Source: Azolla caroliniana
Taxonomy: Eukaryota > Plantae > Polypodiophyta
Assembly (NCBI GenBank): GCA_043228905.1
Contig: JBHGNT010000009.1
Coordinates: forward strand, 1,178,001 to 1,242,000
Direction of reading: 5' to 3'
Length of the DNA stretch: 64,000 nucleotides
In this document: positions 3,841 through 61,843 of the stretch, in pieces
Layout of the letters: every line of letters starts with the position of its first letter
Numbering within the stretch: position 1 is the first letter of the stretch
The notes under the pieces: model-generated
What the model saw: only the letters and a program-made list of their open reading frames with translations
What the model was told of the DNA's origin: nothing
Database searches by the model: none
Made by a program: the position numbers and the translations under genes

Positions 3841-5564
3841 TGTAAAAGAATACGTGCGGAAGTGTATGTGGAGGAAACAAAGTACAAAGCCGGTTATTTG
3901 GAAGTATAACAATTAGGTAAACACAAAGTAAGGGTGAGAGAGAGAGAGACTGAGTAGAGTAGACACAACTATATCAAAAAATAAAATTCTCAATACATAC
4001 AATGTGATCAATGAGCACTATTTATACAAGTCCTTAATACATACTAGGGAAGTTGATTTTGATTCTCAACACGCCCCCTCAAACACAACTTCCGGTCATT
4101 GGATAGTTGGTTTAGATTGGTCTTCGGATCGGCTTCGATAGTCAGCTCCGGCTTCGGCTATGAGTAGTTAACTTGTTCAGTCCTATGTTTGTTCTGCCCT
4201 GTTCGACTTCGTGTCAAATGGCTCCTTATCCATACTCCCCCTCAAGCTCGACCGATCAGCAATAGAAAGACCTAAGTTCGTCGTGAACTATCGTAGCTTG
4301 TCGGCTCCCAGGGCCTTCGTGAAGATGTCGATCATCTGTAGGTGTGTGCTGATGTGTTGCATGTCGACATCTCGGGCCAGGAAACGCTCTCGGATGAAGT
4401 GATAATGCACCTCAATGTGCTTGGTCCAAGCGTGAAAGACAAGGTTCCGAGCCAGATGAATACCGCTCATTTTGTCGCAATAAAGGAGAATCGGATCCAT
4501 GATAGGAACACCCAGATCCTTTAAGATTCTTTTGAGCCAAACGACTTTGCATGCGGTGACGACCGTGCCCATGCATTCGACTTCTGTGCTCGATAGTGCG
4601 ATTGTCGGCTGCTTCTTGCTACTCCAAGATATGGCTCCGTTGCCAAGGGAGAAGACGAAGCCTGATGTAGATTGTTTGTCGGCTTCGGTGTACCCTTTGA
4701 GTCAAATCAGTGTGGCCGATTTGTAGAGGACACCGTAATCGATGGTTCCACACACATAGCATAACACTCGCTTAGCAAAGTCCAGGTGAATGTTTTGTGG
4801 TGTTTGCATAAACTGGATAATGAGGTCGACCGAGTAACTGAGGTGGGGTGGAGTAATGGTGAGGTAGATTAGGCTTCGGACTAGCTGACGATAGAAAGTC
4901 GGCTCACACTCTTTTGTGCCAGACTTGACATCTAGCTTTAGGTTTTGATTGAGAGGGGTGGCGACGACCTTACACTATGTCATCCCAAACTTAAATAAAA
5001 GATTAAGGATATAGTGTTGTTGGGAGATCACGATGCCGTCAAGAGTTTGAATTATTTATATACCTAGAAAGTAATGTAGCTCCTTCATGTCTTTCATTTC
5101 GAATCGGTCGGAGAGAAACTTTTTTATATGAACGATATCTACTAAATGTTTTACTCCAAAAGTCATCCACATATATTATGATAAATACCTATCCTCTGGA
5201 ATTGCTCTGGATGAACAAAGAAATGTCGGACTTGGACATTTGGAAGCCGATTTGGTGAAGATATTGGGTTATCTTTGAATGCCATGCTCTAGGTGCCTGC
5301 TTGAGGCCGTAGAGAGGCTTTTTGAGTCGGCATATCGCTTACAGGTGTGTGCTCGACTTAAAACCGGGTGGTTGTACCATGTATACCTCCTCTTCTAATT
5401 CTCCTTGAAGAAAGAAGTTCTTGACGTCCATTTGGTGGAGGTGCCACCCTTTGACTACTGCAAGCGCGATCACGGTTTGAATGGTAGTCATCTTTGCCAC
5501 TGGGGCAAAGGTGTCTTCGTAATTGACATCGTGTGTCTGTGCATAGCCTTTTGCCACAAGCCGA
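3841..5564 (-). mobile_element. Ty1/Copia relic: RT, RNase H and 3' LTR (3841-4071)
   Basis: Minus-strand motifs [26 protein letters not shown] and TKHIEVHYHFIRE. PPT complement at 4072. The LTR end TGTAAAAGAA matches the reverse complement of the LTR end at 61710. Confidence 0.85.
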
Positions 5565-7885
5565 TGTCGCGGGTTTTCACGTGTGTGTGTCAGAAACGGG
5601 GTGGGACCACTGGGTCTCGGACCAAGAAGCCGGTAATGGAGGAGAGATTATCCAAATTGGTTTCCGGATCGGTATCTGGCGGTATCAGGATCGGTTTACG
5701 GACTAGTCTCCAGACGCTGGTTGACGAGCTCGCGGATCGAGAAGTGTACACGATTTCAGAACTACAACCGGATAATGGGAGATGAATGCACGGGCTCGGG
5801 GTTCCAACTAAGCATGCAACAAGAGGGAACAAAGGTAAGAGCATAATAGGGACAGAGAATGACACCCAACGACACAAGGTGATCCAGATAGCAAAAAGAT
5901 GATCTATTAGTTCGGAATAATAGAAATACAAACAGACTCAGCGGACAACAGAGCTTTGATCTCTCCACACTCATGGACATTGATGCCAACAAGCCTCCAA
6001 TCGGGAGCACACAGGCTACCAACGCGAAATGGAGGCCTCACATCACAATGACCGAAACAGAAAACAAAAAATAGAGGATGGACAAAATGGATGACTAAAG
6101 AGCTCGGTTCGGCAACACTTCCCTCTCTAGCACAAGTTCAACACCTCCCTTTTATAGCACAAGGGGAGGCCGTTACATCACAGATTATGACAACCATTTC
6201 TTTTAGTGGTTCTTCCTCGATTCTCTCTCCCCTCATATCCTAATATTTGCGTGGGACATAAAGTACCCATTAACTACTCTACTTAGTACTTATGCTATTT
6301 ACAATTGTTGTTACATAAAAATAAGTTTTGTGTGCATCCATGCACACCCCATTTCACGCGTGTTCGACTCCTTTTTCCCCTTATGGCCGGAATCCTTCAT
6401 GACATCCACCCCCACCAAACCACACATCCTCTGGTATGTGCCGGTCTAGCGAAGTAGTGGGGATTCCGGTCCGCCCCTTACTCGTCCTCTCCTGATCCGT
6501 CATTGACTGACACATCAACCTCGCTGTCTTCCTCTTCTGCTTTCCGATCCAGTTCCGGTTCGTGCCGCTTCTTGAAGCCCTTGATCCATTTTCCTGCAAT
6601 TGGAATTGCGATCCTCGTGTTGGGAGAAAGGTCCCTCCGGATGGGAAGAAGAGTATGAGCTGAATCGGATGGAACCAATGGATAATTCGGCCAAGGCCGA
6701 GAATCAATTGTATAACTGATTCGGGAGACTATATTTTTAAATAGTCTAGATATGCTCATTGAGGTTATATTTGTAAATAGTTTGCTATGTGTATGAGTAT
6801 ATATACACTTAGGGCAAGTAGTTAAGAAAGAGTGATAATCATTATAGTTGAACAAGTTACAGTGAGTAGTTGCCTTTGTAACTATGAGAGTGAGAGAGTA
6901 AGTAAGAGTAGTAACTCTGTCACCGTCTGTTAGATGAAGAAGAGCTCGAGGTTGATGCCTTCGAGTCTCCCTGTACTCCTCTTCATACACATTGTGATTT
7001 GGTTATCTTGGGGTTTGTGGACCCCTGTGGTTTTTCCCTTTCGGGTTTTCCACGTAAAACATCGGGTGTCTCTGTATTTTCTATTTCCTGTTGTCTGTGC
7101 ACTTTCGTTTTCGTTTTTGCACCCAAGCATACGTATTTCCTATTTTTGGGTTGTCGTTGGTGCTCGTTACCACGTAAGGCCTGAACCACCGCCTCACGAA
7201 CTTCCGGGTTGACTGACGCTGATTGTTGAGGCTGCTGTCGTAGACCAACACCTAGTCGCCTTCCCCTCGATCTTCCTTGACCGGAGTCGGTGCGTCCGAT
7301 TGAAGCGGCCCTTTTTCTTCTTCCTTGCATCTTCCAACCTTGTTGTTGCTCGTTCCGCATCCTCTGGCCTTTGCTCTAGCTGTTGGATCCTCGCCGCCAG
7401 CAACTCCTCCCGGTTCATCTCAACCGTCTAGTCGATTGCCGTCCATGACACTATTGTTTTCTCCACCGGCATAGTCGGCTTTTGCCCGAACATGAGTTGG
7501 CTGGCATAGTCACCAAACTATGCGTAGTCCGGCCGACCCACAATGCATATGGAAGGAGCCTTGGCCAATTTCCGACTTGCTCACTGCATGCTCGTACTAT
7601 AGCCTTGACGATCGATCGGTTCGTGCCCTCTTTCGACCTTTCTGTTTGCCTCTAGATTGTATACCATCGTGAGGGAGAGCTTGACCCCTAGTCGGTCGAA
7701 CAACTCCTTAGCTTCTTGCACATCTAGCTCCCCTCGGTCGGCTACTATTTTCCCGATGCAACCCTACCAATAGATCACATTCCTTGAGTAAGAACCGGCA
7801 TACGACCGCGATTGTCTTGTTCATTAAGGCCCGATCCTCCACTTGGTTCGTCAAATCTTCTCTAGCAAGAACCAGGTACCTCATT
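5565..7885 (-). mobile_element. W-family Ty3 relic: 3' LTR (5565-6404) and integrase end
   Basis: TGTCG...TGACA termini, PPT complement TCCACCCCCACC at 6405, integrase motifs homologous to element C. Inserted in the Copia RT; flanking 4-mer CCGA. Confidence 0.85.
6618..7150 (+). mobile_element. Truncated Copia solo LTR inside the W integrase
   Basis: Starts TGTTGGGAGAAAGGTCCCTCCGGATGGGAAG, like LTR 55156 and the reverse complement of 25362-26016. Its 3' end and about 30 bp of host are missing. Confidence 0.75.
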
Positions 7886-10020
7886 CGCCTTGGCTCTTTG
7901 AAAAGCGGTGTACAAGGTGGACACCCCAGTTTATGTGATGGTTGACACGAGTCCGGCCGAAATTGGGTGGGTGGTCAATCAAGAGGACGAAGCTGGCGTG
8001 TGGTTCACCATCCGGTTCGGTGAGAAGGTGTTAAACTAGCGACATCGAATATATGCCCAGGTTAAACACGCACTGTGGGGTATCATTTCGACAGTCAAGG
8101 TTGACAAGGACTACTTGATCGAGGCAGAAGTGATAATCGAGATAGATTGCCTATCGATTCTTGGTATGGTTTATGGATGTGCGACTTCGGACCTGGTGAT
8201 GGTCAGATGGATCACATGCATCAAGTTCCTGAATTCGGAGATATGACACATCTCCGGAAAGGACAACACCGTGGCCAATTTGCTTTCGAGAGCACGGTTC
8301 GACAATGAGGATGACATGGTGTTGGAAGACGAAGAAGTCGGTGTGGACTTCTTCGAGTAAGCTCAAATGTTAGAAAACAAACGAGGCACTTCGACCCTAA
8401 ATGAATTCGATGAGAAAGACTACGAAGGGGAGTGGCTTCTAATCGGTATGTTGCTAAGCACAATGGCATTGGACGTGTCGTGGACAAAGGAGGAAGTGGG
8501 CCGGATCCGGAAGAAGGCGTATCGGTTCTTCTTACAAAACGGTAAGATATGGAGGCATCCGAATAAAAAGACCAGCACACCACTCCGGGTGATGACGAGG
8601 GAGGAGGACCAATTGGTGCTGGTGTCAAAATTCCACGAGAGTCCATGGTCCAGACAATGGGGAACATGGGCCACGTTTGATAAGCTAAAGGAGAAGTACT
8701 GATGGCCTAGAATGTACAAGGACGTGCATCATTTCGTAACAACGTGCGAGAGTTGTCAGATGCATTTTGGAATCCGGCACCATGACGAGTTACACCCGAC
8801 ATATCAGTCGGCCATTCACTTCAAGTGGATGGTTGTCCTAGTGATGATGCCGATGGGTGTGGGCAAAAGTGATATCTGGTACTGGCGCAGGAGGACCTGA
8901 CGAACCAGGTGGAGGGATGGGCCTTAACGAACAAGACGACTGCCGTAGTTTGCAGGTTCTTTATCGAGGATGTGATGTGCCAGGTGCGTAGGGAAGATCG
9001 TGGCTGACCGTGGGGAGCTGGACGTGCAAGAAACGGAGGAGTTATTTGATCGACTAGGGGTCAAGCTCTTCCTCACGAAGACATACAATCCGGAGGTGCG
9101 CAGGAAGGTAGAACGTAGCCATGGGATGATTGTGAAGGTCATTGTATGGGCATGCGATGGACGAGTCGGAAACTAGCTGAGGCTTCTTCCATATGCGTTG
9201 ACGTGCAAGAAACGGAGGAGTTATTTGATCGACTAGGGGTCAAGCTCTTCCTCACGAAGACATACAATCCGGAGGTGCGTAGGAAGGTAGAACGTAGCCA
9301 TGGGCTGATTGTGAAGGCCATTGTATGGGCATGCGATGGACGAGTCGGAAACTAGCTGAGGCTTCTTCCATATGCGTTGTGGGCCGACTGGACTACGCAC
9401 AATTCGGTGACAGGGTACATACCAACCAAACTTATGTTCGGGCAAAAGTCGATCATGGTTGTGGAGCGGACGATAGCCTTATGGATCTCGGTCGATTGGT
9501 CGAACGAGATGAGCTAGAGTAGTTGCTGGCGACATGAATCCGATAGCTCGAGCGACGACCAGAGGACGTAGAGCGAGCTAGGGCAAAGCTATAAGCGGCG
9601 CGGGAAAGGAACAAAGGGCGGCTTGACCGGATGCACAGACTCTGGACAAAGAAGATTGAGGAAGGCGACTGGGTGCTTGTCTACGACAATAGCCTCGACA
9701 ACCAGCATTGGTCAACCTGAAAATTCACAAGGAAGTGGTTCGGGCTTTACTTGGTAACAAGCGCCAATGATAATGCTACCTATCACCTTGCGGAACTTGA
9801 TGGGACGAGGATCACGATACCGATTGCGGGGAAGTGGATAAAGGCATTCAAGAAGAGACATGAAGCGGAGCCGGATTCGGAGGTAGAGGGCGGAAGCGCG
9901 GACGAAGAGGAGGACCCGGATGAGCACTCGATCGGGGGTGGACGAGTAAGGAACGACCAGAATCCCCACATGTTGCTAGATTGGCACATACCGGAGGATG
10001 TGTGGTTTGGTGGGGGTGGA
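7886..10020 (+). pseudogene. W-family pol relic (RNase H and integrase)
   Basis: Fragments KKAYRFFL, WATFDKLKEKY, CESCQMH and YHLAELDG match element C pol. A 179-bp tandem duplication sits at 9021/9200; PPT GGTGGGGGTGGA ends at 10020. Confidence 0.9.
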
Positions 10021-10426
10021 TGTTGTGGGGAATTTCGGCTACGCGGAGAAAAGGAACCGGATGCGCGTGAACGGGGATGTGAGCGGATGCACACGATCTT
10101 ATCTTTATGTACAAACAATTGTAAATAACATAAGTACTAGGTAGAGTAGTTAATGGGTACTTTATGTCCCACACGAATAATAGGATATGAGGAGAGAGAG
10201 AATCGAGGAAGAACCGCTGAACACGTTCGCGTTCAGAAGTGGAAGGATCACACATTCCATTATTAGATTCCTTTTATAATCTTGCGATTTTCGGCAATGT
10301 CAAAAAGTTGATACACCAGTATCACATGTCTTAAATAACATATAAATTCTGCTAATTTTTTGAGATTTAACAAGTGTGAAAATATCATTTCTAAAATTTA
10401 ATAGTTTTTCGATAAATGTTTAAACG

Positions 10427-13299: not shown

Positions 13300-15740
13300 G
13301 ACATGGGGTGTATATCCTGCACACATGTTTCGGATGTCAACACGAAAATGTTGGAGGCTAATAGCAGGAAATGTATCTTTCTATGATATAGTGACACATT
13401 GAAGGCCCATTGACTATATAAGCAGGAGTAAATTTATAAAGATATTGAAAATTTGTGATGTGGTGTTTGATTAGGAGTGAGTACACCTCATTGAGAGCAT
13501 GGGTTCTCAAGTTATCTCATCAATCCAAGAAGTATCCAACCTAGTGTCAATGCATTGTCAAATAAAAGAAGTTGAATCAACTGATGGTGTTGACTCATCA
13601 GTTCAGCATTTTGTAGTAATACTAACAAAGAAACTATCTAGCTAGGTTCAACAACTCTTTGATGATCATAATCCTCAAGTCGAGTTTCTTGAAACTCTAG
13701 ACAAAGGATTGTGAAGATCGAGAGAATATAAGAGTAATTGAGAACCTCTCACCACATCGTCAATAGGGTTTTGATGGTTGACATCATAGGTTCTTTGAGT
13801 TACCTACTTCAATGGAGGAAGCAATGTCTAATCCGAAGTGGAAAGAGGCAATGTTATCAAAATACGACATCATGAAGTGTGCCATGTGGGAGTTGGTAGA
13901 GAGACGAACAAAGAAAAAGTTGATAGGCACCAAGTGGGTGTCGAAAACAACAAATAAAGTCCATGGCTAAGATACATTCAAGGCTAGAATAGTAGCACAA
14001 GGCTAGTCTCAAATTTAAGGGTTCAATGTACAAGAAACCTTTGTGCCGACATCTCGTAACACGATGTTGTGGGGAGTTCCAAATGCGTGTGAACGGGGAT
14101 GTGTGCGGATGCACACGATCTTATCTTTATGTAGAAACAATTGTAAATAGCATAAGTACTAGGTAGAGTAGTTAATGAGTACTTTATGTCCCACACGAAT
14201 AATAGGATATGAGGAGAGAGAGAATCGAGGAAGAACCGATGACAGAAACAACTGTCATTATCCGCGATGTAACAACCTCCCCTTGTGCTATAAAAGGGGA
14301 GGTTTTGAACTGTTGAGGCATCCACATTTTGGGGGAGAACGAAGTGCTGCCGGTTTGAGATCCGAGCTCTGTCGTTGCCTCCGTTTCTGTTCTGTGCTAT
14401 TTTCAGGAAGAAGGTGGAGCCCTCTCCTCACGTAGGAGCCCTCTCCCAATCAGAGGCCCATGTTCTGCGCGTGTCGAGCTGTAAACTTTTTTGGCAGTCA
14501 CGTTCGGCAGTAACCTTTACATTTTTCTCTGTTAATCAATAGAGTTTGTTGAGTCTCTTTGTGTGTGTTTAGGCGTAGCCATGTTCTTACAATTGTTCTC
14601 CTTGTGCTGAGTGTGTGTATCTGAGGGCGTGAGCTCATTGCTGCTATCTGGTAACCGGTTTGGAACAATATGCGTCTCTGAGTCTGCGTGCTCACATTCC
14701 GGCATCCGGGAGTTGATCCGGTTCGGATACGTGTCCGGAATCCGATCCAGTGAGGTTGTCCGGAGGCCAATCCGGAAGCCGACCCGGACATCGTTCCTCT
14801 CTCGCCAACTCGTTGGTCCGAGACCCCGGTGGTTCTGCCCCGTTTCAACACAAACTCGCAGATATCCGCAACAAAGATAATTCAAATGGTCATAGATTTG
14901 GTCGCTTCAAGAGGAGAATCTATTAACCAAATGGATGTAATATCAACATTTTTGAATGGTCATATCAAGGAGGAGGTATATGTGATGCAACCACTAGGGT
15001 TTGAATATGCAAGTTGAAGACGACATTATACGGTCTAAAACAAGCACTGGGAGCTTGGAACAAGAGGATTACAAGATCGACTTCAAGCAATGTGCTTCTG
15101 AATCACATTTTCCCAAAGCGATGAATGTGCTTCATACCTTGAAGTGGTGCACTTCCAAGGGACACTACCTAACTCATCTTCCTCTAGGTTGGTTAACAGA
15201 TGGATTGAGGGATGTCACTCCCCAATGGCAAAGACCATGCCATACAATCAACACATGTAAAAGCACTTATCTCTCTACTCCATGCAACTACAGAAGCCTT
15301 GAAGGCTTCTTAAGTTAATATAAATGGTTGTAATTTGATTGCTTCAAGAGGATAATCTATTTACTAAATGGATGTCAAACTTTCATTTCTAAATGGTCAT
15401 CTCAAGGAGGTATATGTGATGCAACCACTAGGGTTTGAATCTACAAGCTGAAGAATGCGTTGTATGGTCTAAAACCATCACCAAGAACTTGGAACAAGAG
15501 GATTACAGTTGATTGACCATAACCAATGTGCTTCTAAATTGCATTTTCCCCAAGCCTAGGTATTAATACAATTCATACCTTGGAATGTTGCACTTCCATG
15601 CTCCATCTTCCTCTTAGTAGGCTAACCGAGGGATTGGGGGACGACACTCCCCAATGACAAAGACCGTGACATATAATCAACACATAAAAGCACTTATCTC
15701 TCCACTTCATGCAAACGTGGAAGCCTCGGAGGCTTCTTAA
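13300..15740 (+). pseudogene. Degraded Copia pol (integrase end and RT), with a duplication of about 430 bp
   Basis: Motifs KCIFL, PTSMEEAMSNPKWKEAM, IGTKWV, KARIVAQG and QMDV..FLNG..EEVYVMQP. The segment ~14900-15320 is repeated at ~15335-15740. Confidence 0.75.
14065..14873 (+). mobile_element. W-family solo LTR
   Basis: TGTTG...CAACA termini, 4-bp TSD ACGA/AAGA. It interrupts the Copia RT motif FVPTSRNT|IIQ. Confidence 0.85.
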
Positions 15741-21666: not shown

Positions 21667-21912
21667 AATTAGGCTTAGTGTATAGTCACTTTCGAGTATA
21701 CTACATATTGTACACTACTAGAACTCTTTTAGTTTAAGTTCTATTTTTTTTACTTAATTTTATTTTTAGTTATGATGACTGGATAAATACTCTATTGTTG
21801 TAAACCAATTGTCTCATGGGCCAAATTTGGCCTTAGAAGACGTTAATACATCTTTCTTTCTTTTCTTTCTTTCTTTCTTTCTCCACGCATGCGTGTAACA
21901 ACGCGACATATT

Positions 21913-21930
21913 TGGTGAACCCGACGTGAA
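21913..21930 (+). promoter_or_regulatory. Primer-binding site complementary to tRNA-Trp
   Basis: TGGTGAACCCGACGTGAA, identical at 27144, 32207 and 34500. It complements the plant cytosolic tRNA-Trp 3' end (...TTCACGTCGGGTTCACCA) as I recall it. Confidence 0.85.
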
Positions 21931-22558
21931 AGGGCGGCAAAGGAGTCGAAAGATGAGGGGATCGGAGCTAGTAGAGGCAATGGCGGTGGCCGTCGACCGA
22001 CTGGTAAGCGCTCGTGAGGGGACGGGTACCCTCGACAGAGCCATTGAATCGATCGTCGGCTCTATAGGCCGGTTCGGAGGGAAAGACGCCACAAGTTATT
22101 TGGAGGCTTGCCGGGCCGAAATGATCATGAGGGATAATCCCGGTGGACAGGCGGCTGTCCGGATTCCCTCGGGTGGTGACGCCGAGCATCCACGCGGAAG
22201 TGCTCGAGGTGCTGGCCGGATGTCAAACTTGGGAGGATTTCGAGCTGTAGCTCCTCGAGAAGTACGGGTTTGACGGCTCGCTTCGGTTGTCGAGGCGGGA
22301 CTTCATGGCATGGGTGGAAAGCCCCGGAAAGGGGAGGAACACGTCGGCGCTCCTCCAAGAGTTCGAAAAACGGTTTGCGCGGCTGTCGAAGCTGGACCGG
22401 ACCGTGCTCGAAACGAGTCGAGTACTACTGTTTGTCAAGTCAGTGGACGCGCTCGACAGGGAAAAGGTGGGTCCCCTATTGGAGACGGACGAAGGGCTCA
22501 CGACATACTGGGCCGTGGTAAAACGGGTCTACAGCAGCCGTTTGTCATGATATGGCAA

Positions 22559-22612
22559 GACTCGAACCCATGACCTTAGGTTATATGGGTCGAGCTCTTG
22601 ACCATTAGATCA
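22559..22612 (-). promoter_or_regulatory. tRNA-like Pol III A box and B box, antisense in U3
   Basis: Minus strand reads TGATCTAATGG ... GGTTCGAGTC with the canonical 45-nt T8-G53 spacing. The cloverleaf is not preserved. Confidence 0.6.
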
Positions 22613-22688
22613 TCTATTGTAATACGTAGGATATTATTTTCATTTATATTTTATTATAGGAAATTAGTGTATATTCCAGATTTCTCTA

Positions 22689-22706
22689 GAACATTCTAGA
22701 AGCTTC
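22689..22706. promoter_or_regulatory. Perfect 4-unit heat-shock element
   Basis: GAA-CA-TTC-TA-GAA-GC-TTC, about 20 bp upstream of TATAAAA (22727). Also present at 47471-47488. Confidence 0.7.
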
Positions 22707-22837
22707 AGGATTACTCCTGAAAACACTATAAAAGAGGGCACTAGGCATTATATTGAACCAAATTGGTTCAACGCCAGTCTTAAGGCTTTTAGCCACCATT
22801 GTATATTCTCTTCATATAATACATATCTTTCTTATCA

Positions 22838-22880
<43 letters not shown>

Positions 22881-23054
22881 CTCGCTCACTTCTTCCTTCT
22901 CTCGAAGAAGTTCCACACCTCTCATAGTACTAATCCTTCGTTTAGTACTATTCCTTCTCTGTCTCAGTACTGTTCCTGACAGTTTGAACCAATTTTCCTA
23001 CCTTTTGTCTCTCTCATTTCCTACTAATCTTTTATTCCTCTTTTCTTTCATCCC

Positions 23055-25361: not shown

Positions 25362-26016
25362 TGTTGAGAACTCGACGTTCCTTATGTCCGACGCTCGGCC
25401 ACAACCGAGATTCTTTACATACACAGAAAAAACAGGTAATGAAACGCGACACAAAAGAGGAGAAATGATACACAGGAGGTATACGTGGAAAAACCCCAAA
25501 ATAGGGGAAAAAACCACGGCAGCCCACAAGCTGCAAACTGTCGCTATGTAGAAATATACAACAGTGAGATCACTGAGGCAACGACCTCGTGCTCTCAGAT
25601 CTTCGCCACAGGCGGCGGTTACAACAGAGGCAACGACCTCGTCTCTCTCTCTCTCTCTCTCTGTACAGTTACGTGCTCTGATTTCTTCTTGCACCAACAA
25701 CGAAGAATAATAACAAGAATGACAACATATACTAAAAGTTTGCCCTAAGTCATATTTATACTAATATGACTTTTCGGCTATTTACAAATGTAGCCTCGAT
25801 GGGCTCCATCCGGCTCTCCGCAGTCGGGTACTCCTCATCCGGTTCATACTGGGCCTACACCATCCGACTCTCCGCAGTCAGGTACTCCTCATCCGGTTCA
25901 TACCGGGCCTACACCATCCGACTCTCCGAAGTCGGGTTCTCCCCATCCGGTTCATACCGTTTGTTCGTCGGCACTGTTCTTCTCCCTTCCCATCCGGAGG
26001 GACCTGTTTCCCAACA
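25362..26016 (-). mobile_element. Copia solo LTR inserted in the RT YLDD motif
   Basis: TGTTG...CAACA termini, TSD CTATT (25357-25361 and 26017-26021). Homologous to LTR 55156; contains 51-bp tandem repeats. Confidence 0.92.
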
Positions 26017-42132: not shown

Positions 42133-44841
42133 ATGGGCATTCTTGAACCGTCGAGTGCCCCGTACTCGAACCGATGGTTTACCGTACCGAAGAAAAACGG
42201 AACGTTGCGCTTCATTCAAGACCTGCAGCCGGTCAACATAGTGACCATTCGAAACGTAGGAATCGGACCGACCATAGACGAGTTCACGGAGGCCTTTGCC
42301 GGAAGGTCGATTTACTCGGTCGGTGATCTGTACTCAGGGTACGACCAATTCCAGCTAGCCGTGGAGAGCAGAGACATTACGACGATGCGAACTCCCCTCG
42401 GCCTAGTGCGAATGTGTACCCTGCCACAGGGAGGGACCAACTCGGTGGCCCACATGGTGAATGCAATGAACAAGGTACTGAGGGATTGCATCCCGGACAT
42501 CACCATGCCGTTTCTAGACGACATCCCTATCAAAGGGTGCCCGGTGGAGGAGAAGGACGAGACAGTCGGGCCGGACGGATGCCGGCGATTCGTGGCGACA
42601 CACATCAACGACTGCGAGAAGGTGCTACAGAGGCTGGAGGATGCGAGGCTCACCTTCTCCAGGGAGAAATCGGCCTTCGGGCAATCGGAAATCCTGGTAG
42701 TCGGACACCTATGTGGGCCATATGGCCGGAAGCCGTCTCCGGCAAAGGTAGAAGCCATCTCCGCGATGAAGACCGACTGTAGCTCGGTTACGGAAGTTCG
42801 GAGGTTCCTGGGGGCATGCGCATTCTACCACATATGGATCCCGCATTACGCCCACGTTGCGGAGCCGCTATACGGGTTGCTGAAGAAGGGGCAAAGATTC
42901 GAGTGGCGAGACGAGCACACGGGGTCGGTCCGGAAGCTGAAGGAAGCTCTTGCGGCAGCTCCGGCGCTCCGGAAGGCTGTCTACGAGAAGGGTACCCCGG
43001 TAAACATAACGGTGGATACGAGCCCGACCGGGATCGGATGGGTCGTCAACCAAGAAGACAAGGACGGCACCCGGTTCCCGATCCGATTCGGCGCTAAGGT
43101 CCTCAGTGAGCGACAGCGAGGGTACGCCCAGGTTAAACGTGAACTCTGGGGTATCGTTTCGGCAGTAAAGGCGGACAAAGACTACCTGATCGAGGCAGAA
43201 GTGGTTATCGAGACGGATTGCCTGCCAATTCTCGGCATGGTTTCCGGATGCGCGACAACGGACCTGGCGATGCTCAGGTGGATAGCGTACGTCAAGTCCC
43301 TGGACCCGAAAATACGGCACATTTCCGGAAAGGATAACGCCATGGCCGACATGCTTTCGAGGGCGAGGTTTGATGACGAGGGCGGCATGGTTTCGGAGGA
43401 CGAAGAAGTCGGCGTGGACTTCTTCGAGTCGGCGTACGTGACGACCGATGGGACGAGCACTCCGGCACTTAACGACTTCGACGAGAGCAAGTACGACGGC
43501 GAGTGGCTCCAGATCGGTGGATTCTTGAGGACAATGACGCCGGATGCGTCATGGACGAAGGACGAGGCCAACCGGATCCGGAAGAAAGCTTACCGATTCT
43601 TTCTCCGGGACGGATACTTATGGAAGCACCCGAAGAAGAAGGACGGCGCTCCGCTCCGGGTGGTGGCGATGAAGGAAGAACAGGAGGAGCTGCTGACGGC
43701 CTACCACGACAGCCCTTGGGCCGGACACCGTGGAACCTGGGCCACGTTCGAGAAGATAAAGGGGAAGTACTGGTGGTCGGGACTGTACCGGGATGTGCAT
43801 CGATTCGTGACAACTTGCGAGAGCTGTCAGATGCACTCCATAGTCCGACACCGGGACGAACTTCACCCTACATACCCTCCGACCATCCACTTCAAATGGA
43901 TGGTAGACCTGGTAACGATGCCGATGGGAATAGAACAGATGCGGTATTTGGTCCTGGCTCGGGAAGATCTAACGAACCAGGTGGAAGGCCGGGCCCTTCA
44001 GAACAAAACGACTGCAGCCGTATGTAGGTTCCTGCTCGAGGATGTAATATGCCGGTACGGGTGCGTCGGGAAGATCGTGGCTGATCGCGGGGAGTTGGAC
44101 GCCGAAGAGGCCGAGGAGCTGTTCGACCGGCTAGGAGTCAAGCTCTCGCTTACCACTGCGTACAATCCGGAGGCGAATGGAAAGGTGGAGCGCGGACACG
44201 GACCGATCGTCAAGGCGTTAGTTCGGGCATGCGGAGGTCGAGTCGGTAACTGGCCGCGGCTATTGCCTTACGCGTTGTGGGCTGACCGGACTACGCACAG
44301 TTCGGTAACCGGATTCATGCTGGCAGAGCTCATGTTTGGGCAGAAGCCGATCATGCCGATCGAACGTACGGTCTCCTCATGGGCAACCGTGGACTGGAGA
44401 GACGAGATGAGCCGGGAGGAACTGTTGACGGCGCGCATACGACAGCTCGAACGGAGACCGGAGGACGTGTAGCAGGCTGCGGAAAAGCTTCGGGAGGCAA
44501 GGATGAGGAACAAAGCCCGGTTCGACCGAACACACCGGCTCCGACCGAAGAAGATCGAGGAAGGCGACTGGGTGCTAGTTTACGACAACAGCCTCGACAA
44601 CCAGCACCGAGCGACGCGGAAGTTCGCAAGAAGGTGGTTCGGGCCTTACGTGGTACAAAGCGCCAACGACAACGGGACGTACCATCTGGCGGAACTCGAC
44701 GGTACGAGAATGACGATACCGGTAGCTGGGAAGCGGATCAAGGCGTTCAAGAAGCGTCACGACGACGAGTCGGATCAGGTTGACTTGGACCGCGACGACG
44801 AGCGATCCGAAACCGAGGAAGAACCGACGGGCGGGGAATGA
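42133..44841 (+). pseudogene. pol: Element B pol (RT-RH-IN)
   Basis: Close homologue of C pol; stops at 42121 (upstream) and 44470. Confidence 0.92.
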
Positions 44842-45542
44842 AGGCTGGACCGGTTTTTCTCCGTCCCAACACAATTTGGCGCATGCCGGTGGATGCGCGG
44901 TTAGGTTGGGGCGGATGTCGTGAAGAAAACCGTCCACAAGAGGAATCGGTGTACCGGAGCGTAGAGACCGACTCTTCATGCACGTGCGCCTTAAGTTGTA
45001 CATAGGAGATCCTAGGTAAATTCGGTAGGTAGGGAGTAAAGGGCGGGGAGTCGAGGACGAAGTGCTGTCGGATTGGGCGCGAAGTCTCTCTCTCTCTCTC
45101 TCGCTCTCTCTCGCTCTCGCTCTCTCTCTCTCTCTTGCTCTCTCTCTGTCTCTGGTTCGCAGACTCCATAGCTTCCTTCTGTGCAGGTTTCGGGAGGCTC
45201 GCGCTGCTCTGAGGAATGCTCGAGTGCTTCCGGCAGCACCTCCAACCTGTTCCTGTCTTTCTGTGCGTTTACGAACAGGTACCGGCATCTGTCCGCCGGC
45301 CTGTTCGGTTGTAACCAACATCGTGTTTTAGTGACTCCGTGTTCTTGTCGTTTGTCTTGTCAATACATACATACTTTCGCGTCTTTCTGTGTCGCTGTCC
45401 CACTCGTGTCTTGCGTCGAAGGGCCGTGTCCCTGTGAGTCTACGCTCGCACGTAGCGGGTCTCTCTCTCTCTCTCTTACTCTTCGGTACAGGACCCCCGA
45501 GGTCTCGCCTCACTCCGCGCATCCGCGAGGAATACCTCGACA

Positions 45543-47332
45543 CCGTATTTAGTGACCACAAGAATCTTGCCTACTTTCAGGATGCTCGTGTGTTGAATCG
45601 ACGTCAAGCTCGGTGGGCCCACTTCCTCACGCGTTTCGACTTCAAAATTACATATCATCCGGGGAGGCACCAAGGGAAGGCAGATGCATTATCACGGTGT
45701 TCGTATCTAGCACCCCGTCCCGACGAGCCAACTTTCGATAACCAAAAACAAGTCATCTTGGGACCGGCACGACTACAAGCAACACAGATCTTTGACATGC
45801 CTATGGATTCCCGCGTTATCGATACCATACGTGAAGACTTGAAGACAAATGCGTTCGCCCAAGCTATACTAGCACAAATTGATCCCTCTCGAGCGTCGTG
45901 TTCACAGTCGCAACCACCAGGTACAGACTATCGGCAATTCAAATACCATGATGGATTACTCTTCTTTAAAGAACTTTTGTATGTTCCTAATGGTTCTTGC
46001 CGCCTTCGAGTAGTACAAAACTGTCATGACACATATACAATTGGGCATTTTGGTAGTACTAAAACATTACATTTAGTACAACGAACATTCTAGTGGCCCT
46101 GTATGCGACAATTTGTCGAGGATTTTGTTCGGACTTGTGATACATGTTGCAGAGCGAAAATGCCAAGGCATCATCCATATGGTTTATTAGAACCATTACC
46201 AATTCCAAGCAAGTCGTGGCAATCCATTGCTCTAGACTTCATCGCAGATCTTCCAGTCTCTAAGGGGTTCAATGGGATTCTAACGGTGGTCGATCGATAT
46301 ACGAAGCTGGCTCATTTCTTGCCATGTACTAAGGAGATCTCCAGTGAAGACACTGCCGAAATTGTCATGCGTGAAGTATGTCGGCATCATGGACTTCCCG
46401 ATAGTATCATCAGCGATCGTGGACCCCAGTTCGTGTCAAAATTCTGGAAGCACCTTTTTAACATGCTCAAGGTCACTTGTAACCTCTCCTCCGGCTACCA
46501 CCCACAAACCGACGGCCAAGCTGAACGAACAAATCAAACGTTGGAGCAGTATCTGCGGTGCTTTCTCAGCTATCATCAAGATGACTGGGCATATATTCTC
46601 CACATCGCTGAATTTGCCTATAACAACTCTATCCACGCATCCACTAAAGTTACGCCATTTTATGCTTATACGGGATGTCACCCCCGGTGGAGTGTACTTG
46701 AAACCCTAGAGGTGTCCACAAATCCGTGCGCGGAGGATCGTTTGGAGCAGTTACGCAAGATACAAGCGGATTTATCTACTCATCTCCAGCAATCTCAACA
46801 AACACACAAGGTCTACGCGGATCATCATCGACTTCCATCTAGTTTTAATATTGGAGATCGGGTGTGGCTGCTACGATGACACATCAAGACTACTCGTCCA
46901 TGTGCGAAGTTAGATTATCGGCGATTAGGTCCTTTCCGTATTATTGGACAAATTAATGATGTCGCTTTTCGTCTCGATCTACCTCCTCAACTTCGGATAC
47001 ATCCGGTGTTTCATAGTTCTCTCCTCGAACCCTACCACGAGAGCACCATCCTAGGACGTCTTATCCAACCTCCACCCCCGATCGAGCTTGAAGATGGGCC
47101 GGAGTACGAGGTTGCTGCCATCCTTGATTCCAGGATTGTTCGCAACAAGCTCTACTATCTAGTCGATTGGCTAGGCTATAGCCCCAACGAACGTACTTGG
47201 GAACCGATCGAGAATGTGACCAATGCTCGTGCTCTTCTTGAAGACTTCCATCGTCAATATCCACACAAACCAGGTCCTCAATCCAAGACGACTCGTGACA
47301 CTCGTCGTTTTAAAGGGGGGATAGTGTCATGA
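45543..47332 (+). pseudogene. pol: Chromovirus pol part 4 (RNase H end, integrase, group I chromodomain)
   Basis: DHKNL, GHFG, CDTC, SDRGPQF, QTDGQAER, GPF and [10 protein letters not shown]...[17 protein letters not shown]. Stops at 46091 and 46877. Confidence 0.93.
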
Positions 47333-47762
47333 TATGGCAAGACTCGAACCCATGACCTTAGGTTATATGGGTCGAGCTCTTGACCATTAGATCATCTATT
47401 GTAATACGTAGGATATTATTTTCATTTACATTTTATTATAGGAAATTAGTGTATATTCCAGATTTCTCTGGAACATTCTAGAAGCTTCAGGATTACTCCT
47501 GAAAACACTATAAAAGAGGGCACTAGGCATTATATTGAACCAAATTGGTTCAACGCCAGTCTTAAGGCTTTTAGCCACCATTGTATATTCTCTTCATATA
47601 ATACATATCTTTCTTATCATCACACACACACTCTCTCTCTCTCTCTCTCTTTCTCTCCGTCTCGCTCACTTCTTCCTTCTCTCGAAGAAGTTCCACACCT
47701 CTCATAGTACTAATCCTTCGTTTAGTACCAATTCCTTCTCTGTCTCAGTACTGTTCCTGACA

Positions 47763-50700
47763 CCGTTTCGACAAACGGCGCGATTGGAGCGATGGAAGCT
47801 CGTTGGGGTCAGGGCCGGTCTCGAGGAGGAGTCCCGAGGAGCCGGTATCGGTGCCAGCCGGAAGGAAGGAAGAGACCAGAATCTGGCCAGAATCGGGGTC
47901 GGCATCGAACGACGTGGTCAGAGGCCCATCCGGATGAGCGGCTCTAGAGGAGTTGGCACAGATGGTGCGCGACCTGCAGATCGCATAGGCCCGGAGAGAC
48001 AGTGGCGAACAACCTCGCGACCGGAGGCCGCCGGCTGGGAAGCGGTGCATGTGGTGTGATGCGATCGGTCACATTCGGAAGGATTGCGCGGATTTCGCCG
48101 ACGCACTCAGGACCAATGTGGTGTACCTCTGGAACGGGCGGGTCACGCAAGCGAGACCTGGAGAGCCCTAGAACTGAATACGGGGCGCAACGGAATGAAG
48201 AGGTTGATGTTAAAGGCCGTGGCACGACACGTCGAAGCCGTGAACTACTCAGTGTCGGCAGGAATTTGGGTCGGGGGTAATGAGACCCGGAAGACGAAGG
48301 ACTCCGGATTCTGACCGCAAGTGCTAGAAGGCCTCTCCGGAGTTCGGCTGAAGAAGGAAGAGGTAGACTGCGCGGAACAATGGGTCCAAGAGGTCACCGG
48401 TTGGGACGATCCGGTCGAAGAGAAAATGGGCTTCGCAGAAGCCGCTTGCCAGAACTACGAGGTTCTGGTGGAGGACAAACGGGCAGGAAAGGCCGGAGAG
48501 GTCGGTCCCCCGCAGAGGTATGAGACCCGGTTCGGACCAAAACCGACCAGTGCCGGCAACCTAGGCGCGCTGGACGGAAAGAAGTAGGCGGGGTTTCGGT
48601 TGAGCACCGAAATCGAAAGGACCACAGACCTAGAAAAGGTCCTGGAGGAACGTATCCTCGACAGCAAAGTGGAGTTGTCATTGCGGGAGGTGCTGGGAAT
48701 CGCCAAGAGGGAGTTCCACGACTCTATCGTAGACTTGGTGAAGCGGAAGAGGCTCTCGACGGAGCCGGAACCGGAGAAGCCGGTGGAGGTGCGGACCACG
48801 CACTTGGAAGACGAAGCCCTAGAAGACGAGTTGGCGGGAAGCCACTACATGAAGCCGCATTGGGCCAGGGCAACTACGAAAACCCCTGTACGGATCGACA
48901 ACATTCTGGAACTGGTGGTGGCGTTGGTAGACCATGGATCCGATATCAACCTGATGTCCATGGATTTCTACAAGAAGGGTAAATGGCCGATCAACACCAA
49001 GCATAGCTAGAAGATACGGGTAGTGACGCGCGCCAGGAAAGAACTACATGGGGCCTGTCCAAACGTACGGGTGAAAATCGGCGATGTCGAGATCGACTAA
49101 CACTTCTTCGTGCAGGAGACGTCCTCGCATCCGGTTATACTAGGAGAGCCATATATCACGGCGGCATGGATGGAGACCAAGGTGCTGGACAACGGTTCAG
49201 CCTATGCAAGAGTCAAGAGCCAGGACAGGTGTCACTCGGTCCAGTTCCTAACGGTGCGACCAAACCACAAGCATAACCGCGAGGCCCTCGACGGCGAAAC
49301 CCGCGGGGATTTTTAGAGAGGGCTATCAAGGCGTGGGGCCACGATAGTCCAGACACCCGGGAAGAACCCCACAAATGTACAGTACGGAAAAAGACCTGGA
49401 CCATAGGTAGGAAATTTTGGTTCTCTGACAACGGAGGTTGTACTATAACCGGCGTCAGCAGCCGGGAAAGGAAGCGAGCGGAGGAGCGGCTCAGGGGATG
49501 CAGAGTCCTCTTCCCCGACGAAGACATCAGCGGCGCCGTGGAGGCGGTCTCTTTTGACGACACCTTGGGCGAACTGCGAAAGGTGATCGGTGAAGACCTT
49601 AGAGAAGACCGGACCGTTCCGGTAGGGTCAATGGGAATGTACGAAGTCATCGCGGACTTCGGGGAAAGGATCGGGTCGGATCGGACGGCCCGTGTGGATA
49701 CAAAGTACAAGACTGTGGACCGGAAAGTGAGGCCAGTCGCGGCATCCTTGCTGGAGGGCAGCGAGGAGCGGATAAAAGGGGTCGCGTCGGACCCAAGTTT
49801 ACGGAATCCGGCTGGCATAGGGCACCGGTTCACCGACATAACGCTACGGGAGCTCAAGGTTAATGGGGGCGGCTTTCTACTGCCGGCGGAGGAGGACCGG
49901 TTTCGGAGAATGCTCGGGAGGCACCGGTTTCGGAGAATGCTCGGGAGGCACCGGAAGGCTTTCGCATTCTCACCGGAGGAGATCGGGTGCGTAGACCCGA
50001 CAGTGGTCGAACCGATGGTGATCTTCACGGTACCGCATGTACTGTGGAATCTCAAGCCAATTCCGGTGCCGAGAGCTCACATCCCGAAGTTGATGGAGCT
50101 CCTGAAGCAAAAGGTGGAGATGGGCATCCTCGAACCGTCGAGTGCCCCGTATTCGAATCGGTGGTTTATGGTGCTGAAGAAGAAAGGCACGCTGCGCTTC
50201 ATTCAGGACCTGCAACCGGTCAACAAGGCGACCATCCGTAATGTAGGAATCAGACCGACCATAGACGAGTTCGCGGAGGCCTTCGCTGGAAGGTCGATCT
50301 ATTCTGTCGGTGATCTGTACTCCGGGTACGATCAGTTCCAACTAGCCGTGGAGAGCAGAGACATTACGACGATGCGGACTCCTCTCGGCCTAGTGCGGAT
50401 GTGTACCCTGCCACAAGGAGGGACGAACTCAGTGGCTCACATGGTGAACGCGATGAATAAAGTGCTCAAGGATTGTATCCCGGACATCACCATGCCATTC
50501 TTAGACGACATCCCGATCAGGGGATGCCCAGTGGAGAAAAAGGACGAGGCAATCGGGCCAGACGGATGTCGGAATTTCGTGGCGTCCCACATCGATGACT
50601 GCGAGAAGGTGCTGTAGAGACTAGAAGGCGCGAGGCTCACCTTCTCCGGGGAAAAGTCGGCCTTCGGGCAATTAGAGATCATGGTCGTCGGGCACCTATG

Positions 50701-52829
50701 CGGACCATATGGTCGGAAACCGTCTCCGACCAAGGTGGAAGCCATCTCCGCGATGAAGCATGACTGCAATTCGGTCACAGAGGTCCGCAGATTCTTGGGA
50801 GCATGCACCTTCTACCACATCTGGATCCCGCACTACGCACATGTCGCGGAACCCCTCTACGGACTATTGAAAAAGGGGCATAGCTTTGAGTGGAGGACGG
50901 AGCACACGGAGTCGGTACGGAGACTAAAGGAGGCGCTTACGGTAGCGCTAGCTCTCCGTAAAGTGGTTTACGGCAAGGATGTTCCCATCAGCGTGACGGT
51001 GGACACCAGCCCGACCGAGATCGAGTAGGTAATCAGTCAGGAGGACAAGGACGGCGTACGATTCCCGATCCGGTTCGGGGTGAAGGTATTGAGCGAGTGG
51101 TAATGAGGATACGCCCAAGTTAAGCGCGAGGTTTGGGGTGTCGTTTAGGCAGTCAAGGCCGACAAGGATTATCTGATCGAGACGGAGGTGATCATCAAGA
51201 CGGACTGCTTGCTGATACTCGCCATGGTTTCTGGATGCGCGACGCCGGACCTAGCAATGCTCTGGTGGATAGCGTACATTAAGTCCCTGAACCCGGAGAT
51301 ACGGCACATCTCCGGAAAGGACAACGCCATGGCCGACATGCTTTCGAGGGCAAGGTTCAACGACGAAGACGACATGGTTTCGGATGACGAAGAAGTCGGC
51401 GAGGACTTCTTCGAGTCGGCTAACGTAACGACAAGAAAAGGAACACTTCGGCGCTGAATGAATTTGACGAAAGCAAGTACGACGGGGAGTGGCTCCAAAT
51501 CGGGAGGTTCCTACGGACGATGACGCCGGACGTAGCATGGGCGAGAAAGGAGGCGAGCCGGGTACGGAAGAAGGCGTACTGATTCTTCCTGCGGGATGGG
51601 TGCATATGGAGGCACCCAAAGAAGAGAAGCGGCATCCCACTCCGAGTAGTGGCAAAGAAAGAAGAACAGGGGAAACTACTGGCGGCATTTCACGAGAGCC
51701 CATGGGCCGGACACTGTGGAATGTGGGCCACGTTCGAGAAGCTGAAGGAGAAGTACTGGTGGCCGGGGCTGTACCAGGACGTGCATCGGTTCGTAACGAC
51801 TTGCGAGAGCTGTCAGATGCACTTTGTAGTCTGACACCGGGATGAGCTACACCCGACCTACCTGCCTATGGTCCATTTCAAGTGGATGGTGGACTTGGTG
51901 ACGATGCCGATGGGGGTAGGATAGATACGATACCTGGTGCTTGCACAGGAAGACTTAACGAACTAGGTGGAAGGCCGTGCACTGCAAAGCAAGACAACTG
52001 CGGCGGTATGCCGGTTCCTGATCGAAGAAGTAGTGTGTCGGTACGGGTGCGTCGGGAGGATCATGGCGGACCAGGGAGAGCTGGATGCGCGGGAGAATGA
52101 GGAACTGTTCGACCGGCTTTGCGTCAAACTCTCCCTCACTACGGCGTACAATCCGGAGGCGAACGGAAAGGTGGAACGTGGGCACGGGCCGATCGTAAAG
52201 GCATTGGTGCGTGCATGCGGAGGGCAGGTCGGGAATTGGTTGCGAATCCTTCCTTACGCACTATGGGCAGACCGAACTACGCACAGTTCGGTGACAGGGT
52301 TTATGCCGGCAGAGCTGATGTACGGATAGAAGCCGATCATGCCGGTGGAACAGACGGTTTCTTCATGGGCGGCGGTAGATTGGAAGGACGAAATGAGCTG
52401 GGAGGAGTTACTGGCGGCATGGATTCGGTAACTCGAGCGGAGGCTGGAGGACGTGATACAGGCAAAGGAAAAGCTGCGAGCGGTAAGGGAGCGGAACAAG
52501 ACCCGGTTCAACCGAACGCACCGGTTGCGACTAAAGAAGATCGAGGAAGGCGACTGGGTCTTGGTATACGACAGCAGCCTCAACAATCAGCACAAGGTGG
52601 TGCGAAAGTTCGCTAGGAGATGGTTCGCGCCCTACACGGTGACGAGCGTGAACGACAACGGCACGTGTACCACCTAGCGGAACTCGACAGTACACGGTTA
52701 GCGGTGCCGGTGGCCGGGAAGCGGATCAAAGAGTTCAAGAAGCGGTTCGAAGACGAGCCGGAGCCGGCGAGCGAGAGTAACGACGACGATCAGTTTGGGT
52801 CTGGCAGAGAATCGGAGAACAACGAGTGA
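47763..52829 (+). pseudogene. Element A gag-pro-pol remainder, heavily disrupted
   Basis: Collinear with C, with many stops and frameshifts and a 27-bp tandem duplication at 49897/49924. Confidence 0.9.
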
Positions 52830-53596
52830 AGCCGGTTTCCTTTGGTGTCTACCCGTCTCTGGCGCATGCTGATGGATGCGCGGTTTGGTGGGGGTGGATG
52901 TCGTGAAGAAAACCAGCCATAGGCGGAATCGAAGAAAAAGGCGCATGAACCGGCTCTTACACGGGTGGACACGAGGATTGATATATTGTACATAATTCGT
53001 AATTAGGGCGACTGGTGAAAATACTAGGTAGTGCACATTTATTACGAGATTTTGTGCGTATCTCTGTCGATAGGGACAGGGAATAAAGCAGTTTGGCCGA
53101 GGAAAAGGGGGCACCCCCTTTTGGGGAGCTATTTAAGGAGGGAGAGAAGGAAGGAACATGTATCATGCGTTAAGGAGGACGAAGTGCTGCAGGACTGAGA
53201 GTCGAACTCTCTCTCCTGCTCCGATCATCATTCTCTGCGGGTGTCGGGAGTTCACTGCCTTTGCTTCGTGGACAGCCTGTGTGCTTCCAGCAGAGTCTCT
53301 CCCTTCTACATTTTCGGGGTCCAACATGTTCCGTCTGTGTGCGTGAGTAGGGTCCCCGTGTCGGGTCCATCGCCGGCTCGCCGGGTGTAACCGTCAGAGT
53401 TTGTAATCTCTTGATATTGTAATCGACTGTTATTGTAATTAAGGGTTCCGTTCGTTCTCCTCCTTCTCGCTTCCGCGTATATGGAAATCTCTCTCTCTCT
53501 CTCTCTATGTGCTTGCATCTCTCTCTCTCTTGCTCCTCGTTTCAAGGCCCCCGTGGTCCTGCCTCTTTCTCCACGCACGCGCGTAACAACGCGATA

Positions 53597-54210
53597 GCGC
53601 GCGCTTGACCTTGACTCACACCCACACACGCACACACCACGCCGACCCAACTTACGCCCTTATGTACAGAAACGGAGGTAAGAGAACACCAAATACACCC
53701 GCACAAACACCGGACCCCAACAGAGACATGAATATGCACAGATAGACACAAATGTATATATATGAATGGAAGAATACATTCCCGGCTTGGAGCTGGACCA
53801 AGGTAGGTTACAACAGTCGTTTGCTGTCAAGCCGCCATCGGGGAGCTCTCGGGCTCGTCGCGCCGAGCGGGGTCTTGCATAGGAGGCCGAGCCGAAGCAA
53901 ACCCTAAGTAAAACACGAAGGGGAAGAAGAAGAAGAAGAAGAAGAAGAGAGAAATGAAATACTAAACCTAACGGTATACCCTCCTAACTCAAAATGGGTA
54001 ACCCCTTCACAAGAGGCGCTCCCTTCCTTTTATAGAACAAGGAGGGAGATGCGTTACAATGTGGGATTAATCCCGACTTACATGGGATTCTTTGTCCTAA
54101 CTTGACTCCTACTATTCACACGTTTATACAAGGGTGAGTGCACATGGTGCACCCCGTTGATGTAGCCAATATTTCCCGGTTTCCATCTTTGGCCGAAATT
54201 CTTCACGACA
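53597..54210 (-). mobile_element. D-type LTR fragment (host of element A)
   Basis: Diverged reverse complement of the first ~600 bp of LTR 26376. It ends CTTCACGACA with flank ACGC. Confidence 0.85.
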
Positions 54211-59420: not shown

Positions 59421-59422
59421 AT

Positions 59423-61723: not shown

Positions 61724-61843
61724 CGAGGGTTGAGAACCTCTCTGCAGCCGACACAGCTTGACGAAGAAGAACGAGAAGAACGATGGATAGAGGCATGGCG
61801 AGCTCGCTTCCAACAGAGAAGCTCGATAGAACCAACTACGCGT

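What the first reader, a model, noticed from the sequence alone, without database searches (positions are those of the whole stretch)
5561..61843. Ty3 family that integrates at CpG: all 8 readable sites are N-CG-N with a 4-bp TSD
Seen: two-sided TSDs ACGG (26372/31289), CCGT (31578/45543), ACGG (33707/41002) and ACGA/AAGA (14061/14874; the right copy has lost the C). One-sided flanks are CCGA (5561), GCGC (53597), ACGC (54211) and GCGT (61840). Established: plant Ty3 and Copia elements usually make 5-bp TSDs with weak sequence bias, as the chromovirus (CCGTT) and Copia solo LTR (CTATT) do here. Inference: this integrase cuts symmetrically around a CpG, possibly a methylated one. It lacks a chromodomain, so this could be a separate route into CpG-rich, TE-rich DNA and could explain the self-nesting.
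Basis: partly seen in the sequence, partly recalled or inferred. Interest (0 to 1): 0.85.

Follow-up and report, generated by a model that had tools for sequence, protein, structure and literature searches.

The report
Moss-type Phygy retrotransposons inserting at CpG
These plant jumping genes insert almost only into four-base sites with CG in the middle, but that habit is already published for the moss lineage Phygy, to which they likely belong, and whether the CG must be methylated is untested.

Summary
All 8 readable ends sit on N-CG-N. Three full-length copies have exact 4-bp duplications, and the solo LTR has one C-to-A substitution. The pattern holds outside the window: 30 of 33 distinct 5' flanks of related LTRs in metagenome contigs are NCGN, against a CG background of 3% per position. 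The pooled flanks in two public runs that hold the window's element end in ACGT. The trait is not new. Neumann et al. 2019 list the moss lineage Phygy with '4 bp (100%) (NCGN)', a tRNA-Trp primer site and no chromodomain. The window's elements match these features; a phylogenetic test against Phygy was not possible. The best mechanism is direct reading of the central CG by the integrase. Nothing here shows methyl-sensing. One possibly new lead: the integrase has a conserved D,D(34)E spacing, one residue short at the loop that contacts target DNA in foamy virus.

The parts
33711..41001 (+). Element C: youngest full-length copy (7291 bp). LTRs 33711-34495 and 40217-41001 (99.7% alike), TSD ACGG at 33707-33710 and 41002-41005. 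Inserted in the gag of element B.
34500..34518 (+). Primer-binding site of C, complementary to a tRNA 3' end. The same motif follows the 5' LTRs of A, B and D. Read as tRNA-Trp from recall.
   Evidence: complement equals the CCA-ending small RNA listed as miR894 in PMC5846777
34486..36666 (+). gag-protease frame of C (DUF4100, weak aspartyl protease match)
37428..40145 (+). RT-RNase H-integrase frame of C. Integrase from about 38940: H2C2 finger, D,D(34)E core, GPY/F module, no chromodomain, no aRH.
31582..45542 (+). Element B (6.67 kb without the nested C; internal deletion near the gag-pol border). LTRs 31582-32202 and 44916-45542 (98.7%), TSD CCGT. Inserted in the RNase H of the host chromovirus.
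26376..31288 (+). Element A: non-autonomous, 4913 bp (gag N-terminus only, no pol match). LTRs 96.7% alike, TSD ACGG. Inserted in the RT/RNase H of the host chromovirus.
14065..14873 (+). Solo LTR S of an older family, TSD ACGA/AAGA, inside degraded Copia-type RT sequence
5565..6404 (-). 3' LTR of old element G (pol remnants to about 7890). One-sided flank CCGA at 5561-5564, inside a Copia RT (RVT_2).
7900..10235 (+). Element H: pol remnant and truncated 3' LTR (from 10021); no readable flank
21862..53596 (+). Element D: 5' LTR remnant to 21908, PBS, gag interrupted by the chromovirus, pol, 3' LTR 52899-53596. Flank GCGC at 53597 lies in the LTR of E.
53597..54210 (-). LTR E (A-type), cut by D. 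Outer flank ACGC at 54211-54214 lies in a chromovirus integrase remnant.
61844..64000 (-). Element F (A-type, runs off the window). 3' LTR 61844-62585, flank GCGT at 61840-61843, just behind a Copia-type LTR and primer site (host inferred).
22543..47762 (+). Host chromovirus (Tcn1-like: chromodomain; primer site complementary to its own LTR), 5-bp TSD CCGTT; internal control
25362..26016 (.). Unrelated solo LTR with 5-bp TSD CTATT; internal control (its superfamily was not tested)

Best explanation
These are chromodomain-less Ty3/gypsy retrotransposons, likely of the bryophyte Phygy lineage, that leave 4-bp duplications centred on CG, and their integrase likely selects that CG itself by reading the bases at the dyad of the target. 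Shown: the 4-bp stagger, the central CG, the bias to ACGT, the flat profile outside the 4-mer and the absence of a chromodomain. Inferred: like other 4-bp integrases, the intasome kinks the target at a central pyrimidine-purine step and avoids T at the first position. Base-specific contacts then narrow that step to CG; candidates are the conserved C-terminal-domain loop and the core loop that is one residue short. Methylation is likely not required. The pile-up in other elements would follow from the chromatin and CpG richness of TE islands.
For: Window: 8 of 8 NCGN, with exact 4-bp TSDs in 3 of 3 paired elements. Metagenome contigs: 54 LTR starts, of which 18 follow the PPT and were set aside; the other 36 give 33 distinct flanks, 30 of them NCGN and 2 with central TG/CA (P 2e-42 at 0.031 CG per position). 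3' flanks: 13 of 16 NCGN and 2 TG/CA (two false regex hits dropped). If any flexible YR step were enough, CG would be 13% of sites (P 5e-24). Pooled flanks end in ACGT in runs X1 (23 contigs) and X4 (19 contigs). The Phygy profile matches: 4 bp NCGN, tRNA-Trp PBS, no extra domain; Phygy nested in Tcn1 is reported as common in Physcomitrella. Central YR preference and T avoidance for 4-bp integrases are described in PMC4422553. The integrase model's best matches are PFV and Ty3 intasomes.
Against: No Phygy reference sequence could be obtained, so clade membership is inferred; no Physcomitrium-named protein appeared. Element C (7291 bp) is 365 bp shorter than the published Phygy range of 7656-9968 bp. 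In 0 of 9 short-read contigs with host flanks on both sides of one LTR are the two 4-mers identical; chimeric assembly is my reading, not shown. Run X8 showed no row at the LTR start among the six listed. No residue-to-base contact was tested. All 8 window sites lie in other TEs, which also fits methyl-sensing.
Confidence: 0.72

Rival explanations
1. The integrase, or a host cofactor, prefers methylated CpG. That would give a chromodomain-free route into silenced TE islands.
For: All 8 window sites are inside other TEs. 24 of 35 differences between paired LTRs are C/T or G/A in CG or CHG context, which suggests this DNA is methylated after insertion. 4 of the 6 non-CG flanks in contigs are TG/CA.
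Against: The window is almost all TE, so there is no contrast. Decay after insertion says nothing about the state at insertion. Only 9 of 33 contig flanks matched window sequence by blastn, a lower bound with no genome background. CG-centred targets are used by ZAM in Drosophila, where CpG methylation is nearly absent (recalled). No methyl-binding domain was found.
Confidence: 0.15
2. Only DNA bendability matters. The 4-bp intasome picks any flexible YR step, and CG dominates because the local DNA is CG-rich.
For: Retroviruses with 4-bp TSDs enrich central YR steps (PMC4422553). The region 26-64 kb has 0.082 CG per position.
Against: In contig flanks CG is 13% of YR steps but 30 of 33 targets; central TA is 0 of 33 (P 5e-24). 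Retroviral YR enrichment is only about 63% over background.
Confidence: 0.04
3. The elements are not Phygy but a separate bryophyte lineage that reached the same NCGN target, tRNA primer and TSD length independently.
For: No direct link to a Physcomitrella sequence was obtained. The size is slightly below the Phygy range. The closest named relatives are from the liverwort Riccia.
Against: Four features that are each rare among plant lineages coincide with the Phygy row. Phygy is also reported from a liverwort genome.
Confidence: 0.09

Closest known systems
Phygy (non-chromovirus Ty3/gypsy of Physcomitrella patens; Neumann et al. 2019, PMC6317226; passages, section 9 and supplements 1 and 3 read)
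   Same: 4-bp TSD with NCGN motif, tRNA-Trp-type PBS, no chromodomain or aRH, compact internal region filled by gag-pol; nesting in Tcn1-like chromoviruses (PMC6911290, passages)
   Different: Different host, probably another bryophyte. The complete copy is 7.3 kb against 7.7-10 kb. ACGT bias, non-autonomous members and D,D(34)E spacing are not mentioned in the passages read. Phylogenetic identity is untested.
TatI (Selaginella; same paper, supplement 3)
   Same: 4-bp TSD, tRNA-Trp PBS
   Different: TatI carries an aRH domain (100%) and no NCGN motif is listed; no aRH here
Ginger1 DNA transposons (PMC2836005, passages)
   Same: Gypsy-type integrase with GPY/F motif; 4-bp CG-centred TSD (CCGG 75%, CCGT/ACGG 24%)
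   Different: DNA transposons with TIRs in animals, no RT or LTR; preferred target is CCGG rather than ACGT
ZAM subgroup errantiviruses of Drosophila (PMC2527525 and PMC5408687, passages)
   Same: Ty3/gypsy integrase with sequence-specific CG-containing target, bound directly by the integrase in vitro
   Different: Insect elements; target is CGCG(Cg), whose central step is GC rather than CG
Prototype foamy virus intasome (PMC4422553: abstract, sections 6 and 14)
   Same: 4-bp stagger, central YR step, T avoided at the first position; best structural match of the model
   Different: Only weak sequence preference; canonical D,D(35)E with a small residue (Ala188) that sets preferences outside the TSD, whereas this lineage is one residue short there and shows no outside preference

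Membership tests
Phygy | 4-bp TSD | tested here: met
   3 of 3 paired elements exact, solo LTR with one substitution. Short-read contigs give 0 of 9 matching pairs and are not usable for this.
Phygy | NCGN target motif | tested here: met
   8 of 8 in the window; 30 of 33 5' and 13 of 16 3' flanks in contigs; ACGT majority in two runs
Phygy | tRNA-Trp primer-binding site | tested here: met
   One PBS in 4 of 4 5' LTRs, complementary to a CCA-ending plant small RNA. Its identity as tRNA-Trp is recalled; searches did not confirm it.
Phygy | No chromodomain, no aRH, no extra ORF | tested here: met
   Pfam at E<=1 finds no Chromo in the C-terminus, while the host chromovirus scores 2.8e-15; no aRH
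Phygy | Polyprotein spans nearly the whole internal region | tested here: met
   Frames cover 34486-40145 of the internal region 34496-40216
Phygy | Length 7656-9968 bp (descriptive range in one species) | tested here: inconclusive
   C is 7291 bp; B is 6.67 kb with an internal deletion
Phygy | Clusters with Physcomitrella Phygy in RT-RH-INT trees (the primary definition) | not testable with these tools
   The REXdb FASTA and element table are too large to read; no Physcomitrium-named hit; the tree has no Phygy anchor
TatI | aRH domain in the polyprotein | tested here: not met
Chromovirus | C-terminal chromodomain | tested here: not met
   integrase core only 22-24% identical to the host chromovirus
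Methyl-CpG-targeted integrase (hypothetical) | Target CpG methylated at the time of insertion | not testable with these tools
   No methylation data and no whole genome held

The most novel reading that the evidence does not exclude
A bryophyte-wide Ty3 lineage has remodelled its integrase: a one-residue deletion in the target-contacting loop (D,D(34)E) and a conserved C-terminal-domain loop let it read methylated CpG directly. That would be an epigenetic-mark-guided route into TE islands that needs no chromodomain or host tether.
Probability: 0.12. Interest if true: 0.75.

Novelty: new member of a known kind. Interest (0 to 1): 0.27.

Why it matters
The headline trait is already in print for Phygy, so this is mainly an independent confirmation in another host. 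It adds an ACGT bias, retention of the motif across several families including non-autonomous ones, and close relatives in liverworts. The mechanism of NCGN choice does not appear in the passages I read. The conserved D,D(34)E deletion and C-terminal loop give named residues to test. If 5mC were sensed, it would explain how chromodomain-less elements stay in silenced DNA, and it would be a rare mark-reading integrase.

Tried and rejected
No whole genome is held, so no genome-wide TSD logo was possible. Protein scans of viral contigs and genome contigs found no relative. No Phygy anchor could be found: no Physcomitrium names, the Atlas did not answer, and the key supplements are too large; these unseen supplements (element table, domain FASTA) bear directly on membership. 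Confirming the primer tRNA failed: there is no tRNA in the window, no match in viral contigs, and no useful paper in the listing. Two-sided short-read contigs were rejected as TSD evidence (0 of 9 match). GingerRoot was read as a possible precedent but has a 6-bp TSD and no motif. The Physcomitrium TE paper PMC7466625 gave no TSD data in the passages searched. TG at B's target site in other chromovirus copies was not counted as methylation evidence, because it may be a synonymous codon change. The wide lay of contigs listed no pooled flanks at the LTR ends among the 24 loose-end rows shown of 869.

Full report
1. Observation. Every quoted 4-mer is at its coordinate and touches an LTR end. Three elements have both LTRs: A 26376-31288 (LTRs 96.7% alike), B 31582-45542 (98.7%) and C 33711-41001 (99.7%). 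For each, 4 is the only duplication length among 2-8 that fits, and removing the element with one 4-mer leaves the host reading frame open. Uninterrupted chromovirus copies in public contigs hold B's 4-mer once (5 contigs in X4). The solo LTR 14065-14873 has ACGA/AAGA, a substitution. The four one-sided flanks are NCGN on either strand. The chromovirus and the small solo LTR have 5-bp TSDs. With 0.063-0.105 CG per position locally, 8 of 8 has a probability of 2.5e-10 to 1.5e-8.

2. Anatomy. The window is a stack of nested elements. The CG-targeting copies share TGTCG/TGTTG...CGACA-like ends, one PBS and one PPT type. They are several families: LTRs are 65-90% alike and pol is 57-91% identical to C. 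A has only a gag N-terminus and no pol match, so it is non-autonomous. C encodes gag-protease with DUF4100, then RT, RNase H and integrase, with no chromodomain at E<=1, where the host chromovirus scores 2.8e-15. Hosts of the 8 sites: chromovirus for A, B and E; Copia-type DNA for G (RVT_2), S and F (read from translation and position); the same lineage for C (in B's gag) and D (in E's LTR). Self-nesting is thus 2 of 8. The host chromovirus has a chromodomain and a primer site complementary to its own LTR, as Tcn1 elements of mosses and club-mosses do. The closest named pol relatives are from Riccia sorocarpa, the best at 55-64%. The host is therefore likely a bryophyte (inference).

3. Independent test. 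A scan of metagenome contigs for the LTR start gave 54 loci. 18 follow the PPT and are internal. The other 36 reduce to 33 distinct flanks: 30 are NCGN, 2 have central TG or CA (possible CpG decay) and 1 is ATCT. Background is 0.031 CG per position, P 2e-42. Of 16 LTR 3' ends not followed by a PBS, 13 are NCGN and 2 are TG/CA (two false regex hits dropped). These contigs come from one accession series and from relatives about 70-92% alike to the window's copies, so they are many insertions but not many hosts. In runs holding the window's element, pooled flanks before the LTR start end in ACGT (X1, 23 contigs; X4, 19 contigs); X8 showed no such row among six listed. The outer bases are selected too: ACGT is 14 of 30 against 6.2% of background CG sites (P 7e-10), first-base T is 1 of 30 against 331 of 886, and positions outside the 4-mer are flat. 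Against my reading: 0 of 9 contigs with flanks on both sides of one LTR have identical 4-mers; the first base agrees in 8 of 9 and the fourth differs in 9 of 9. Chimeric paths through collapsed LTRs would give few matches, but I did not prove that cause.

4. Mechanism. The integrase model (mean pLDDT 78) matches PFV and Ty3 intasomes best. Retroviral integrases with 4-bp TSDs favour a central YR step and avoid T at the first position (PMC4422553, sections 6 and 14), which fits the outer-base bias here. Bendability alone fails: CG is 13% of background YR steps but 30 of 33 targets (P 5e-24). Base-specific reading is therefore inferred. There are two candidate determinants. First, the spacing between the second Asp and the Glu is 34, not 35, in C, B and D and in 100 of 101 parsable near relatives (19 of 120 not parsed). 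The host chromovirus, three Chara relatives and 18 of 20 parsable distant hits (of 31) have 35; a Tilletia hit has 34 with an otherwise canonical motif. The missing residue maps at or next to PFV Ala188 (alignment; numbering offset recalled), which sets preferences outside the TSD in retroviruses. Second, a loop before the GPY/F motif is conserved in 88 relatives (Q 92%, H 90%, K 100%, F 99%, R 94%); that the equivalent PFV loop contacts the target major groove is recalled. Neither was tested, and I did not search the literature for the 34 spacing. On methylation: 24 of 35 LTR-pair differences are C/T or G/A in CG or CHG context, which suggests methylation after insertion only. ZAM and Ginger1 show CG-centred targets in animals. 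I put methyl-sensing at about 15%.

5. Known relatives. Neumann et al. [quoted passage not shown] Their supplement lists 186 elements, 4 bp (100%) NCGN, tRNA-Trp 81%, no extra domain, 7656-9968 bp. Jedlicka et al. (PMC6911290, passages) report a CG-rich centre in 4-bp TSDs and Phygy nested in Tcn1. The window's elements meet every structural feature I could test except that C is 365 bp below the size range. The primary phylogenetic criterion could not be tested, because the reference files were too large to read and no Physcomitrium-named sequence came up. TatI shares the TSD length and primer but has an aRH. An earlier AI note (e1-10582392) reports NCGN in a likely fungal genome; I checked only its Ginger1 citation.

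6. Verdict. The feature is real and strong, but it is a published property of a known lineage. New member of a known kind, interest 0.27. The residual novelty is the D,D(34)E lead and the open methylation question (probability 0.12 for the bold version, interest 0.75 if true).

Noticed in passing
window 38940-40145 (+); P0001-P0120: Integrase has D,D(34)E spacing with motif D-R-G-[ED]-L, conserved in 100 of 101 parsable near relatives; Chara relatives keep 35.
   Followed up: partly
L010, L026, L027, L028, L036, L038, L040, L049, L051: LTRs with host flanks on both sides never have identical 4-mers (first base equal in 8 of 9, fourth base different in 9 of 9); probably assembly chimeras, unexplained.
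   Followed up: partly
window 26376-31288 and 61844-64000; L041: Non-autonomous family about 4.9 kb long with a gag N-terminus and a repeat-rich internal region; a 92% alike copy is in L041.
   Followed up: partly
window 34500-34518 and equivalents: The PBS is the exact complement of the plant small RNA annotated as miR894, which is probably a tRNA 3' fragment and could silence this lineage.
   Followed up: no
window 22543-47762: Tcn1-like chromovirus: primer site just after 22982 is complementary to its own LTR (self-priming type). It is inserted in D's gag and hosts three later insertions.
   Followed up: partly
window 36447-37427: A frame of about 240 residues between protease and RT has no Pfam match; gag-protease and pol are in different frames.
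   Followed up: no
window 5565-10235: Two old copies (G minus, H plus) are joined back to back near 7890 with overlapping integrase parts; H also has a 180-bp tandem duplication at 9021-9379.
   Followed up: no
window 16657-21666: Near-complete LINE (ORF1, endonuclease, RT) with a few stops, ending next to D's truncated 5' LTR; its 3' 280 bp are duplicated at 16184-16462.
   Followed up: no
window 11500-12060: Tandem array of short degenerate repeats with palindromic cores in AT-rich DNA.
   Followed up: no
window 55860-61710: Copia-type element with a long coiled-coil-like insert (about 57100-59300) between gag and RT/RNase H remnants.
   Followed up: no
P0289: A 41% identical relative is labelled as a Bosea (bacterial) protein on a 5.8-kb contig, probably eukaryotic contamination of a bin.
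   Followed up: no
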